From an uncultured Chitinophagaceae bacterium (lineage in GTDB: Bacteria; Bacteroidota; Bacteroidia; Chitinophagales; Chitinophagaceae), in NCBI GenBank assembly GCA_963710055.1, contig CAVPYW010000008.1, positions 72,794-136,793 of the forward strand: a stretch of DNA of 64,000 nucleotides, read 5' to 3'. Shown here in pieces: positions 61,072-64,000 of the stretch. A program made the position numbers and the translations under genes. A model generated the notes under the pieces. That model had not been told where the DNA came from. It saw only the letters and a program-made list of their open reading frames with translations, and searched no databases. The stretch's first letter is position 1; each line of letters starts with the position of its first letter.

Positions 61072-61674
61072 ATGTTGAGAGAAACTTTTCAGTTCTTCGC
61101 TGATGAACTGAACAAATATCTTATTCTAAAACAGGTCGTATCGTCAGATACACCACGTGTCGTAGTGGGCAATGTTGCCCGTGCATACGACAATGAAACC
61201 CTTAGCGGTTCCGATCCCATTATTAACAGGGCCATTTTATCATTGGTAAATATTGAAGAAGACCGGGTATCAAGGCAACAGGAAAACTATACAAAGTCGG
61301 ATACCGGTACAAAATATAAGAGCCCCCCGCTTTTTCTCAACCTGTATATGCTGGTCTCTTCCAACCGAAGCAATTACAGCCAGTCGCTGGCATGGATAAG
61401 TCATATCATACAATTCTTTCAATACCAGAATGTATTTACTCCTATTACTCATCCTTCACTTGACAGCAGGATCAAAAAACTGATCGTTGAACTGCACTCA
61501 TTGAATTTCGAACAAATAAATCATTTATGGAGTACACTGGGTGGTAAATACCTGCCATCTGTTATGTATAAGATCCGCCAGGTAACATTGGATGAAGACC
61601 TTGTCGTAAGCGAAAGCGGATTTATAAAAGAGATCCAGATCGAAGAAAAAGCAAAACAACCGGTGATCGAATGA
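61072..61674 (+). CDS. DUF4255 / Pvc16-Afp16 family cap (tail-terminator) protein of a contractile injection system
   Basis: LSLVNIEEDR, PPLFLNLYML, IIQFFQ...F, LWSTLGGKYLPSVMYKIR. Confidence 0.9.
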   Translation: MLRETFQFFADELNKYLILKQVVSSDTPRVVVGNVARAYDNETLSGSDPIINRAILSLVNIEEDRVSRQQENYTKSDTGTKYKSPPLFLNLYMLVSSNRSNYSQSLAWISHIIQFFQYQNVFTPITHPSLDSRIKKLIVELHSLNFEQINHLWSTLGGKYLPSVMYKIRQVTLDEDLVVSESGFIKEIQIEEKAKQPVIE

Positions 61675-62900
61675 AGACAACGTACAGGATATTATTCACG
61701 GTAGAAATGCTGCATGATTATTACAACAATCTTCAGTGCACTGACTTTGATATCATACCATCCGATGCAACGATCCGGCTGATGAAGAACAGGCAAATGA
61801 TGTTCAAGAATGTCGGGAACAAATTGATAGTAATGGTAAAAGTAAAAACGGATGCACCCGATATCGACAAACCTTTTATCGATCTAAATCCTGACGATAA
61901 GTTTTTGTTTTACCTCCAACTGAACAATACAAAAGCAAGTATCATCAGCAATTTTGATGTAGATAAGTTGCGCAGCGGCAGACGGTATTACTTTACCAAC
62001 CTGTATGAGAACGATCTTGATGATGGTCTCAGTCTTACCAGTAAAATAGAAGCAGTAGCAGGTGCTGCAGAATATGTGCCCGGCGATTTTACTGCCGATG
62101 GAGCTAATACCGTTTATGAATGTATCAAAAGCACCGACGAAACAAATAATCCGCCGAATGCAGTTTTTTGGCAGGACAGGGGCAAACAGCAATATGTTTC
62201 CGGCGCCGATATGCTGCCATTGAAATCAAGATTTGAAGAATTTACAGTAACCAATGACGCCAAAGAATTTACGATCACTGTATCCGGGTTCAACAGGCTC
62301 AGTGGAAATTATGATAAGAATATACCGATCGAAGCGAATTTTTTTACCAGCGATACGGATACAAGTATAGTACAGGCAAAATTAACAGAGCTTCCGGCAG
62401 GACGATATACGATCGATATCAATACACAGGAATTTAATGTATTTGTCGATGATACCGCTGTTCATAGCAATGTATTCGGGATCATAGAAATATTTTCACA
62501 TTTTGCCAATGGAACTGATTTTGCTTTTCTTGATATTAACGGTAAAGTAAAAGATGTAAGTGGTAATCCGCCATCATGGCTGCGCTATAAGATCCGTTTT
62601 GCCAATCGTATGGCTTATTGGCAATACAATACGCCAAGGCATGGTGTTACAGCCATCACCGATCTCGCGGCCTTGTATTCTTTCAATCCAACACCGGCTG
62701 CACCCGGCGATAAAGATTTTTTTACTTCTGATAAACCGATACCGTTACTGGAATCACCGTGGAAATTTAAGGTGAATGTGATAAGCCTGTCAAATGATGA
62801 AGATCCGCTGGCGCCCAATCCCGATCCTGATATTACCGGGATGTTGCGGCGAACCGAAAACGACAAAGATTATTTCTGTACGATAACACTCAATTATTAA
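61671..62900 (+). CDS. Hypothetical CIS protein between cap and sheath (putative cap adaptor)
   Basis: ATGA overlap with DUF4255; LFTVEMLHDYY N-terminus and LPNP-like LAPNPDP C-terminus; position typical of Bacteroidota CIS loci. Confidence 0.6.
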   Translation: MKTTYRILFTVEMLHDYYNNLQCTDFDIIPSDATIRLMKNRQMMFKNVGNKLIVMVKVKTDAPDIDKPFIDLNPDDKFLFYLQLNNTKASIISNFDVDKLRSGRRYYFTNLYENDLDDGLSLTSKIEAVAGAAEYVPGDFTADGANTVYECIKSTDETNNPPNAVFWQDRGKQQYVSGADMLPLKSRFEEFTVTNDAKEFTITVSGFNRLSGNYDKNIPIEANFFTSDTDTSIVQAKLTELPAGRYTIDINTQEFNVFVDDTAVHSNVFGIIEIFSHFANGTDFAFLDINGKVKDVSGNPPSWLRYKIRFANRMAYWQYNTPRHGVTAITDLAALYSFNPTPAAPGDKDFFTSDKPIPLLESPWKFKVNVISLSNDEDPLAPNPDPDITGMLRRTENDKDYFCTITLNY

Positions 62901-62920
62901 ACTTTTAAAATTTAGAAAAT

Positions 62921-64000
62921 ATGGCAACCAGTTACAAAACCCCCGGCGTATTTGTGGAAGAAATTCCCAAACTACCTCCTTCCGTGGCACAGGTTGAAAC
63001 AGCTATACCTGCGTTCATCGGATACACAGAAAAAGCAGAAAAAAATGGCGACAACATTGCAAACATTCCTACCGAGGTTTCGTCCCTGGTTGAATTTGAG
63101 ACCTGGTTCGGCGCAGCTTATGCTTACCAGCCGGGGGATGTAAGCGTGGAATTGGATGAGAATAACAATTTTGCTGTAACGGAAATAGAATATATCGATA
63201 AATCATTTTATCTCTATGATTCGATCCGTTTATTCTATGATAACGGCGGAGGGAAATGTTATGTTACTTCGGTCGCATTATATAGTGCCGATTCTTTTAC
63301 CAATGGAGTGTTGGACAGCGCTGCTGCTTTAACGGCAGGTTTGAATGCGGTTGAAAAATATGATGAGCCAACTATCCTTCTATTCCCCGATGCAGTGAAT
63401 TTGTCTGAGCCTGAATTTTATTCATTACAGCAGGCGGCTATTTCGCAATGCGCCAAACTACAGGACAGGGTTGCTGTTCTTGATCTGAATGAGAATGGAA
63501 CAGATGAACTGGATGAAGCCGTCGATGAATTCCGTGATAATATCGGTATCAGTAATTTAAAATATGCGGCTGCCTATACTCCGTGGTTGTATAATACATA
63601 TTCCCGCACGGTAGGTTTTGAGTTGTTCAGGAATAATGTTGTTGACAGTACCAATAATCCTGTTGACCTGGCTGATGATGTTTCAACAGATACGGATATG
63701 AATACATTGATCGCAACAGCCGACAATGCAATAGATGATCTTAAAGTGATCACCGACGATGTGAATACGTTGCGTAGCACATCTCCCACATTGACCGACA
63801 GGTATAATAAACTGCGCAGCGCTGTTATGCTCGCATCCGATGCTACAACTCTTGTTGCTTTTCAAGCCCTTGTTGATTATGTACGGTTGGTGGCAATGAC
63901 ATTCCCGACATGGCGCTCAGGTGTAGGTTCTTTTTCCAACCCGGATCTTATCAATGCATTGGATGCAGCCGGTAACGATTCTGTAGCAGGATTGAGAAAA
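62921..64000 (+). CDS. Contractile tail sheath protein, truncated by the right window edge
   Basis: Not in the ORF track. Hand translation MATSYKTPGVFVEEIPKLPPSVAQVETAIPAFIGYTEKA...YLYDSIRLFYDNGGGKCYV...LFPDAV...QCAKLQDRVAVLD...YAAAYTPWL is open for 360 codons to the edge. Confidence 0.95.
   Translation, partial: MATSYKTPGVFVEEIPKLPPSVAQVETAIPAFIGYTEKAEKNGDNIANIPTEVSSLVEFETWFGAAYAYQPGDVSVELDENNNFAVTEIEYIDKSFYLYDSIRLFYDNGGGKCYVTSVALYSADSFTNGVLDSAAALTAGLNAVEKYDEPTILLFPDAVNLSEPEFYSLQQAAISQCAKLQDRVAVLDLNENGTDELDEAVDEFRDNIGISNLKYAAAYTPWLYNTYSRTVGFELFRNNVVDSTNNPVDLADDVSTDTDMNTLIATADNAIDDLKVITDDVNTLRSTSPTLTDRYNKLRSAVMLASDATTLVAFQALVDYVRLVAMTFPTWRSGVGSFSNPDLINALDAAGNDSVAGLRK

What the first reader, a model, noticed from the sequence alone, without database searches (positions are those of the whole stretch)
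61072..64000. Start of a contractile injection system (eCIS/T6SS-iv type) directly after the pectin locus
Seen: DUF4255 cap, a coupled 409-aa unknown and a sheath ORF (absent from the ORF track) in one orientation. Known: Pvc16/Afp16 plus sheath define PVC/Afp/MAC/AlgoCIS-type injection machines, whose cargo and targets in Bacteroidota are mostly unknown. Inference: a chromosomal CIS of a free-living Chitinophagaceae; effectors should lie downstream.
Basis: partly seen in the sequence, partly recalled or inferred. Interest (0 to 1): 0.75.

Follow-up and report, generated by a model that had tools for sequence, protein, structure and literature searches.

The report
Start of a contractile injection operon
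The last 3 kb of the window hold the first three genes (tube cap, sheath "cap adaptor", and half of the sheath gene) of a phage-tail-like contractile injection system of the well-described AlgoCIS/Anabaena type in a soil Chitinophagaceae bacterium: real, but an ordinary new member of a known kind.

Summary
61072-61674 encodes a 200-aa single-domain Pvc16_N/DUF4255 cap (Cis16A). 61671-62900 overlaps it by ATGA and encodes a 409-aa protein. 62921-64000 is an open frame of 360 codons, the N-terminal half of a sheath that is about 690 aa in relatives.

The "409-aa unknown" is a homologue of the cap adaptor Cis16B, solved in Anabaena tCIS, AlgoCIS and SalCIS. Both sequence profile and predicted fold support this.

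The rest of the machine lies outside the window and could not be read. Two things argue for a complete system. The same 508,550-nt contig also encodes a CIS tape-measure protein. In about 40 related loci, wherever the contig continues, the triad is followed by tube, VgrG, PAAR, gp25, baseplate J and later genes. The Niastella caeni cluster was read in full (18 genes, about 29.6 kb) and has no capsid, terminase or portal gene.

The neighbouring hexuronate/pectin operon is real, but the adjacency looks incidental.

One small new item: a palindrome, TACCA-N5-TGGTA, sits about 115-140 nt upstream of the cap gene here and in several related loci. It may be an operator.

Whether the particle is released or membrane-anchored, and what its cargo is in this genome, remain open.

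The parts
60844..60864 (+). Terminator-like hairpin followed by a T-run, 31 nt after the stop of the MFS (ExuT-like) gene. It probably ends the hexuronate operon.
   Evidence: Consensus scan. The fold is weak (-8.6 kcal/mol, z -1.2), so this is suggestive only.
60934..60950 (.). Palindrome ATACCAGTTAGTGGTAT (core TACCA-N5-TGGTA), 123-137 nt upstream of the cap ATG. Candidate operator or promoter element of the CIS operon.
   Evidence: The exact core occurs once in the 64-kb window. It also lies at -116 to -140 of the cap ATG in L001 (N. caeni), L034 and L004/L032, with near matches in L035, L038, L005 and L006. A random 300-nt stretch of the loci holds an exact match with p about 0.006. Upstream genes differ between these loci. 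Function is inferred, not shown.
61038..61067 (+). Stem-loop in the presumed 5' leader, ending 4 nt before the cap ATG.
   Evidence: -11.5 kcal/mol, z -2.96. A similar hairpin with the same outer stem (AGCGUU...AACGCU) precedes the cap gene in L006 (-13.8 kcal/mol, z -4.6). Seen in only two loci; function unknown.
61072..61674 (+). cis16A: tube cap / tail terminator, 200 aa, short single-domain Pvc16_N type.
   Evidence: Pfam PF14065 8.1e-36. PDB: All3327 3.7e-28, AlgoCIS cap 1.4e-27, SalCIS DUF4255 protein 3.6e-21. First gene of the cluster in related loci.
61671..62900 (+). cis16B: cap adaptor (sheath terminator), 409 aa, translationally coupled to cis16A by an ATGA overlap.
   Evidence: Single sequence against PDB: All3326 8.8e-9, AlgoCIS cap adaptor 1.9e-4. 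Profile of 29 homologues: All3326 1.9e-26, AlgoCIS adaptor 1.7e-16, SalCis16b 2.6e-9. AF2 model pLDDT 86.5, pTM 0.87. Foldseek: 7b5i_AB E 7.3e-28 with TM 0.73/0.74, 7adz_1A E 8.1e-15. No Pfam family; every named database relative is labelled 'hypothetical protein'.
62921..64000 (+). cis2: contractile sheath, first 360 codons, cut by the window end. Relatives are 679-691 aa.
   Evidence: Open frame. PDB: AlgoCIS sheath 7.4e-44, Anabaena All3325 7.6e-39, against Pvc3 7.1e-8 and Afp3 5.8e-3. 70% identical to the N. caeni sheath, which has Phage_sheath_1 and Phage_sheath_1C domains in its C-terminal part. Relatives' lengths.

Best explanation
These are the first three genes of an operon for a phage-tail-like contractile injection system (CIS) with a two-part cap, the type solved in Algoriphagus (AlgoCIS), Anabaena (tCIS) and Salmonella salamae (SalCIS). 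By analogy with those structures, a hexamer of the 200-aa Cis16A closes the distal end of the inner tube. A hexamer of the 409-aa Cis16B bridges that cap to the last sheath ring and is needed to finish sheath assembly. The third gene makes the sheath, whose contraction drives the tube and spike into a target and releases cargo from the tube lumen. The remaining genes (tube, plug, LysM tube initiator, VgrG, PAAR, gp25, long baseplate-J with a cage, Cis12, fibre-like PKD protein, tape measure, eCIS_core effectors, AAA+ ATPase) are inferred to lie in the roughly 27 kb after the window end. Shown here: the identity of the three genes, their order and coupling, the adaptor fold, and a CIS tape measure on the same contig. 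Inferred: completeness of the cluster, cargo, and mode of action. I lean towards released extracellular particles (about 0.55) over a membrane-anchored form.
For: Gene identities. Same order (cap, adaptor, sheath) as All3327-All3326-All3325 in Anabaena, and SalCis16a is the first gene of the SalCIS cluster. In related loci, wherever the contig continues, the triad is followed by tube x2, (DUF5908), CIS_tube, VgrG, PAAR, gp25, baseplate J and a Cis12-like gene. The N. caeni ortholog cluster was read end to end and has no capsid, terminase or portal. The window's adaptor (P0001) and a 536-aa CIS_TMP protein (P0128) each sit on a single contig of 508,550 nt from the same sources. Neither adaptor nor sheath matches any of 50,697 phage records. 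Functions of Cis16A/Cis16B come from PMC8894135 and PMC8894136 and bioRxiv 10.1101/2025.06.01.657177. For a released form: a crude hydrophobicity scan found no clear transmembrane segment in the Cis11 or Cis12 homologues of relatives and only marginal ones in N. caeni's PKD protein, which occupies the fibre position with PKD/CarboxypepD_reg domains.
Against: Nothing beyond codon 360 of the sheath is visible. The window's contig is withheld from the context tools, so adjacency of the tape measure to these genes is not shown. The genome could hold two CIS loci. No RNA or particle evidence exists. Within this group the mode of action varies: released, thylakoid-anchored, inner-membrane-associated, or T6SSiv. 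Homology therefore cannot settle it, and the hydrophobicity scan is crude and was run on relatives only.
Confidence: 0.88

Rival explanations
1. The system is complete but works from inside the cell, anchored to a membrane (T6SSiv-like or SalCIS-like), rather than as released particles.
For: Close structural relatives include membrane-associated forms: tCIS, SalCIS and T6SSiv. The adaptor is closest to the Anabaena one.
Against: Relatives show no TM-helix-bearing Cis13 homologue and no separate SalCis19-like membrane/PG-hydrolase gene. A large PKD/CarboxypepD_reg protein sits at the fibre position. All of this comes from relatives and a crude scan.
Confidence: 0.3
2. A decayed relic: only the first few genes survive and no particle is made.
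For: The downstream DNA is not visible. The neighbouring MFS gene carries a frameshift, so this assembly or genome does contain at least one broken gene.
Against: All three visible ORFs are intact and coupled. A full-length CIS_TMP protein is on the same contig. A 99.6%-identical soil strain has a contig running 1,640 nt past the window end. No related locus stops after the sheath where the contig continues.
Confidence: 0.06
3. The tail module of a myovirus-type prophage.
For: The sheath has a weak PHROG tail-sheath hit (phrog_23, 5.9e-8).
Against: The Pvc16_N cap and Cis16B adaptor have no PHROG hit. Adaptor and sheath have no tblastn match in 50,697 phage genomes. The upstream flank is a sugar-acid operon. 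The ortholog cluster has CIS_TMP, eCIS_core and an AAA+ ATPase and no head genes.
Confidence: 0.02

Closest known systems
AlgoCIS of Algoriphagus machipongonensis (Xu et al. 2022, PMC8894135; PDB 7adz)
   Same: Short single-domain cap Alg16A (197 aa here vs 200 aa), a separate cap adaptor Alg16B, and a large multi-domain sheath (692 aa; relatives of the window's sheath are about 690 aa). It gives the best PDB match for the sheath (7.4e-44). Relatives of the window's cluster also carry a DUF5908 protein at the plug position, a long baseplate-J and DUF4157/eCIS_core cargo.
   Different: The adaptor is 409 aa against 284 aa, and the fold match to Alg16B is only partial (TM 0.42 by query length, 0.58 by target). 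In the two Algoriphagus loci fetched, no cap or adaptor was detected within 10 kb of the sheath with the window's or N. caeni's proteins, so the gene order probably differs. Host is a soil Chitinophagaceae rather than a marine Cyclobacteriaceae.
Thylakoid-anchored CIS of Anabaena PCC 7120 (Weiss et al. 2022, PMC8894136; PDB 7b5h/7b5i)
   Same: Consecutive cap, adaptor and sheath genes (All3327, All3326, All3325). It gives the best match for the adaptor in length (399 vs 409 aa), profile (1.9e-26) and fold (TM 0.73).
   Different: No thylakoids in this host. Relatives show no Cis13 transmembrane anchor. Sequence identity of the adaptor is only about 18%.
SalCIS of Salmonella enterica subsp. salamae (bioRxiv 10.1101/2025.06.01.657177; PDB 9r9h/9r9n)
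   Same: Cis16a is the first gene of the cluster, followed by cap adaptor Cis16b. Deleting Cis16b abolishes sheath assembly. The sheath matches at 4.2e-37 and the adaptor profile at 2.6e-9.
   Different: SalCIS is proposed to associate with the inner membrane through SalCis19 (TM helices plus a PG hydrolase domain). No such separate gene was seen in the relatives read here.
Afp / PVC (clade Ia eCIS; PDB 6rao, 6j0n)
   Same: General parts list and the Pvc16_N domain of the cap.
   Different: Afp16 and Pvc16 are two-domain proteins of about 295 aa with no separate adaptor. Sheath similarity is marginal: Pvc3 7.1e-8, Afp3 5.8e-3.

Membership tests
Phage-tail-like contractile injection systems (eCIS/T6SSiv superfamily, Afp/PVC gene set) | Phage-type single-gene contractile sheath | tested here: met
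   360-codon N-terminal part matches CIS sheaths at 7.4e-44 to 4.2e-37. The C-terminal Pfam sheath domains lie beyond the window and are seen only in the N. caeni ortholog.
Phage-tail-like contractile injection systems (eCIS/T6SSiv superfamily, Afp/PVC gene set) | Pvc16_N/DUF4255 tube cap | tested here: met
   PF14065, E 8.1e-36; solved caps at about 1e-27.
Phage-tail-like contractile injection systems (eCIS/T6SSiv superfamily, Afp/PVC gene set) | gp19-type tube, VgrG/PAAR spike, gp25 and baseplate-J wedge | not testable with these tools
   These would lie beyond base 64000, and the contig is withheld. All are present in the N. caeni ortholog and in the related loci wherever the contig continues.
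Phage-tail-like contractile injection systems (eCIS/T6SSiv superfamily, Afp/PVC gene set) | CIS-type tape measure (PF19268) | tested here: inconclusive
   P0128 (536 aa, PF19268) is on a single 508,550-nt contig, the same length and sources as the contig carrying the window's adaptor. Its position relative to the window is unknown.
Phage-tail-like contractile injection systems (eCIS/T6SSiv superfamily, Afp/PVC gene set) | AAA+ ATPase and no capsid, portal or terminase | not testable with these tools
   True of the N. caeni cluster. The window's upstream flank has no phage genes. Downstream is not visible.
CIS with bipartite cap (AlgoCIS / tCIS / SalCIS type, clades Ib/IIa) | Short single-domain Cis16A (about 200 aa, against about 295 aa in Afp16/Pvc16) | tested here: met
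   200 aa, one Pvc16_N domain covering residues 12-184. Comparison lengths from PMC8894135.
CIS with bipartite cap (AlgoCIS / tCIS / SalCIS type, clades Ib/IIa) | Separate Cis16B cap adaptor encoded next to the cap | tested here: met
   Profile against PDB: 1.9e-26, 1.7e-16 and 2.6e-9 to the three solved adaptors. Fold match TM 0.73 to 7b5i_AB.
CIS with bipartite cap (AlgoCIS / tCIS / SalCIS type, clades Ib/IIa) | Plug (Cis6) and spike cage (extended Cis11) | not testable with these tools
   Outside the window. Relatives have a 59-aa DUF5908 protein at the Cis6 position and a 1265-aa baseplate-J, consistent with both but not shown to be either.
CIS with bipartite cap (AlgoCIS / tCIS / SalCIS type, clades Ib/IIa) | Assignment to clade Ib versus IIa by sheath phylogeny against dbeCIS references | not tested
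   No reference set was available. PDB scores favour AlgoCIS for the sheath and Anabaena for the adaptor.
T6SS subtype iv (Amoebophilus) or other membrane-anchored mode | Particles anchored to a membrane inside the producing cell | not testable with these tools
   Needs imaging. Only a crude hydrophobicity scan of relatives was possible.
Bacteroidota T6SS subtype iii | Two-protein TssB/TssC sheath | tested here: not met
   The sheath is a single phage-type protein preceded by a Pvc16_N cap. No TssB/TssC (VipA/VipB) family appears in the Pfam results for these three genes. Relatives use gp19-type tubes.
Myovirus prophage tail | Similarity to phage tail genes and linkage to head genes | tested here: not met
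   No tblastn match for adaptor or sheath in 50,697 phage records. No PHROG hit for cap or adaptor. No head genes in the ortholog cluster. Downstream of the window itself is unseen.

The most novel reading that the evidence does not exclude
The TACCA-N5-TGGTA palindrome conserved about 115-140 nt upstream of the cap gene is the operator of a still unknown regulator that switches on CIS production across soil Chitinophagaceae. Together with the peptidoglycan-directed domains (CHAP, PG_binding_1) fused to eCIS_core cargo in relatives, this would point to a regulated, bacteria-targeting injection system rather than the eukaryote-targeting role usually assumed for eCIS.
Probability: 0.25. Interest if true: 0.5.

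Novelty: new member of a known kind. Interest (0 to 1): 0.3.

Why it matters
CIS loci of this type are common in Bacteroidota, and their parts are structurally understood, so the locus adds a member rather than a concept. Three things give it modest value. First, the Chitinophagaceae branch has no experimentally studied representative that I could find. Second, the Cis16B cap adaptor family has no Pfam model and is annotated 'hypothetical' wherever a source names it, so the annotation here transfers to many genomes. Third, the conserved upstream palindrome offers a concrete handle on how such operons are regulated. If the cargo in this lineage targets peptidoglycan, as domain fusions in relatives hint, the system could matter for bacterial competition in soil and rhizosphere.

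Tried and rejected
1. Reading the genome beyond the window failed. Exact look-up of the adaptor and of the tape measure P0128 returned nothing. The cap look-up returned only a 2,071-nt soil contig. Neither genome contigs nor metagenome contigs holds this species; the best sheath identities are 70-76%.

2. A chimeric query (N. caeni sheath C-terminus + VgrG + TMP + ATPase), meant to pick up several own-contig genes at once, failed. Only long sheath proteins came back, and one of the three homology searches was wasted.

3. No RNA runs hold the region.

4. Rfam gave only a sub-threshold Phe_leader hit on the minus strand (28.7 bits against a gathering score of 55), taken as chance.

5. No exact Bacteroidota -7 motif (TAnnTTTG) was found in the 260 nt upstream of the cap gene here or in 14 related loci.

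6. A sigma-54 reading of the palindrome was considered by eye and dropped, because the window lacks a TTGC element at the right spacing.

7. A functional link to the pectin operon was rejected. A terminator-like hairpin separates the two. N. caeni has pyrimidine-catabolism genes upstream instead. None of the 80 related hexuronate loci has a cap or adaptor gene in the up-to-6-kb flank fetched, including those whose DNA continues 1-2 kb past the MFS gene.

8. No upstream gene conserved with the window's sub-lineage was found.
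Full report
**Observation.**
- ORF 61072-61674 (+, 200 aa) is a Pvc16_N/DUF4255 protein. Pfam PF14065 scores E 8.1e-36 over residues 12-184.
- ORF 61671-62900 (+, 409 aa) starts with an ATG that overlaps the cap's stop codon (ATGA). It has no Pfam, NCBIfam or PHROG match.
- Twenty bases after its stop, an ATG at 62921 opens a frame that runs without a stop for 360 codons to the last base of the window. The mechanical ORF list omits it only because it runs off the end.
- This fragment matches solved CIS sheaths: AlgoCIS 7adz_2A at 7.4e-44, Anabaena All3325 at 7.6e-39 and a third sheath, 9r9h_T, at 4.2e-37. Pvc3 (7.1e-8) and Afp3 (5.8e-3) match far more weakly.

**The 409-aa "unknown".**
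- On its own it matches two PDB chains: All3326 of the Anabaena CIS cap complex (8.8e-9) and the AlgoCIS "cap adaptor" (1.9e-4).
- A database search found 68 relatives of about 400-420 aa. None has a Pfam domain, and every name a source gives is "hypothetical protein".
- A profile of 29 of them matches All3326 at 1.9e-26, the AlgoCIS adaptor at 1.7e-16 and SalCis16b at 2.6e-9.
- An AlphaFold2 model built on that alignment is confident (pLDDT 86.5, pTM 0.87).
- Foldseek places it on 7b5i_AB (E 7.3e-28, TM 0.73/0.74) and 7adz_1A (E 8.1e-15). Nothing else scores below 9e-4.
- The protein is therefore a Cis16B-type cap adaptor. In AlgoCIS this hexamer bridges the Alg16A cap and the last sheath layer, and its deletion gives particles lacking cap, adaptor and distal sheath layer, or bare tube-baseplate complexes (PMC8894135). 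The same two-protein cap is described for Anabaena (PMC8894136) and SalCIS.
- The cap gene is of the short single-domain kind, 200 aa against 293-295 aa for Pvc16/Afp16.

**What lies beyond the window.** The genome itself could not be read past base 64000.
- Exact-protein look-ups are blank for the adaptor. The only readable contig carrying the identical cap is a 2,071-nt soil-metagenome contig.
- The genome and metagenome collections hold no closer relative than 70-76% sheath identity.

Two indirect lines bear on completeness.
- The adaptor (P0001) sits on one contig of 508,550 nt. A search with CIS tape-measure proteins returned a 536-aa PF19268 protein (P0128) that also sits on one contig of 508,550 nt from the same sources, and is likewise withheld from context look-up. 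The contig therefore encodes at least one late structural CIS gene.
- In the roughly 40 related loci that hold more than the sheath, the order is conserved wherever the contig continues: cap, (adaptor), sheath, tube, tube, (DUF5908), CIS_tube, VgrG, PAAR, gp25, baseplate J, Cis12-like.

The Niastella caeni HX-16-21 cluster was read in full. In order, with lengths in aa:
- cap 198, adaptor 410, sheath 690
- gp19 tubes 147 and 154, DUF5908 59, CIS_tube 225
- VgrG 583, PAAR 95, gp25 150
- baseplate J 1265, Cis12-like 1026, a PKD/CarboxypepD_reg protein 1407
- CIS_TMP 472
- an eCIS_core protein of 1742 with PT-TG and Endonuclease_NS_2 matches (a weak CHAP match appeared only when its first 590 residues were scanned alone), a 193-aa ORF, a second eCIS_core protein of 436
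- an AAA+ ATPase 454

That is 18 genes over about 29.6 kb with no capsid, portal or terminase. The closest relative of the window contig's tape measure (59% identity, L063) is followed by four eCIS_core proteins, some fused to PG_binding_1, a transglutaminase-like domain or an M35 peptidase.

**Not a prophage, not T6SSiii.** Adaptor and sheath have no tblastn match in 50,697 phage records. Cap and adaptor have no PHROG hit. The upstream flank is metabolic. The single phage-type sheath, together with gp19 tubes in relatives, excludes the TssB/TssC-based T6SSiii that is also common in Chitinophagaceae.

**Context.**
- The genes before the cluster are GH88, UxaB-like, UxaA, UxaC, KduI, KdgK, DUF386, Eda and an MFS transporter, all on the same strand.
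- UxaC is 85-90% identical to the copies in unnamed Chitinophagaceae MAGs, which supports the taxonomic call.
- None of the 80 related hexuronate loci has a cap or adaptor gene in the flank fetched (up to 6 kb), including those whose DNA continues 1-2 kb past the MFS gene. N. caeni has pyrimidine-catabolism genes upstream of its cluster. A terminator-like hairpin follows the MFS gene.
- The adjacency to pectin utilisation is therefore best read as incidental, and the cap gene is the left border of the module. No upstream gene is shared with relatives.
- GC content does not change across the border.

**A conserved upstream element.**
- The 258-nt spacer before the cap gene holds the palindrome ATACCAGTTAGTGGTAT at 60934-60950. 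The core TACCA-N5-TGGTA occurs once in the 64-kb window.
- The exact core lies at -116 to -140 of the cap ATG in N. caeni, L034 and L004/L032. One- or two-mismatch versions lie at similar positions in L035, L038 and L005, and further upstream, with a 6-nt spacer, in L006.
- A random 300-nt stretch of these loci holds an exact match with p about 0.006. The cap proteins of these loci are only 56-65% identical to the window's, and the upstream genes are unrelated. Conservation by descent alone is therefore unlikely.
- I read it as a candidate operator or promoter element. In the window its A/T-extended form could also fold as a weak terminator (-9.2 kcal/mol), but those extensions are not conserved.
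- A second hairpin just before the ATG (61038-61067) is shared only with L006.

**Mode of action and cargo.** Systems with this cap type are released (AlgoCIS), thylakoid-anchored (Anabaena) or proposed to be inner-membrane-associated (SalCIS), and the same clade holds T6SSiv. Homology cannot decide between these. Relatives of the window's cluster show no clear transmembrane segment in the Cis11 or Cis12 homologues, and only marginal ones in N. caeni's PKD protein (a crude hydropathy scan). That protein, rich in PKD domains, sits at the fibre position. This leans towards a released particle, at about 0.55. Cargo in relatives consists of eCIS_core (DUF4157) proteins, as in AlgoCIS. Their peptidoglycan-related fusions hint at bacterial targets, but nothing is known for this genome.

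**Verdict.** The correction is that the middle gene is a known component. This is a new member of a known kind, and interest is modest.

Noticed in passing
window 59496-60813, around base 60328: The MFS (ExuT-like) hexuronate transporter gene is split into two overlapping frames (59496-60692 and 60376-60813). A 99.6%-identical soil-metagenome strain lacks one base at 60328. Removing that base restores a single 438-aa ORF. This is either a real frameshift or an assembly error in the window's genome.
   Followed up: yes
window 59000-64000 against run X1: A soil metagenome holds a nearly identical strain: 12 substitutions and one 1-nt indel in 5 kb, at about 5-7x word depth. One of its contigs runs 1,640 nt past the window end, so the DNA continues there, but the tool does not show that sequence.
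   Followed up: partly
window 61072-64000 against L001, L006, L033: The cap is 83% and 78% identical to L006 and L033 but 63% to N. caeni. The conserved sheath N-terminus (residues 1-225) shows the reverse: 79% to N. caeni, 57-60% to L006/L033. This suggests recombination between CIS lineages near the adaptor/sheath boundary. Sheath residues 226-360 are much more variable (24-61% identity).
   Followed up: partly
L011 7164-7802, L025 746-1402, L026 7569-8225, L029 7486-8130 and others: In more distant loci (Flavobacteriaceae and Saprospiraceae MAGs among others), a conserved protein of about 215 aa lies within about 2 kb upstream of the cap gene in 10 loci, on the same strand in at least five and on the opposite strand in at least three. 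It is absent from the window and its close relatives. It may be an accessory or regulatory gene.
   Followed up: no
L057 8981-14209; L063 11623-21620: Relatives carry very large eCIS_core (DUF4157) proteins of 1742 and 1682 aa with PT-TG (plus Endonuclease_NS_2 in the 1742-aa one), each with one strongly hydrophobic segment. L063 also has smaller eCIS_core proteins fused to PG_binding_1, a transglutaminase-like domain or an M35 peptidase, interleaved with 218-aa ORFs that might be immunity or chaperone genes.
   Followed up: partly
L057 17790-20677: Directly after the N. caeni cluster come two paralogous 464-aa proteins with beta/gamma-crystallin-like matches and T9SS C-terminal sorting domains. 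They are probably outside the CIS operon.
   Followed up: no
window 60924-61038 (-): Sub-threshold Rfam hit to Phe_leader (28.7 bits against a gathering score of 55, E 0.009). Taken as chance in an A/T-rich spacer.
   Followed up: no
L053 930-944; L058 20066-20080: Two further exact TACCA-N5-TGGTA matches in fetched loci lie away from any cap gene. They are either chance or additional sites.
   Followed up: no
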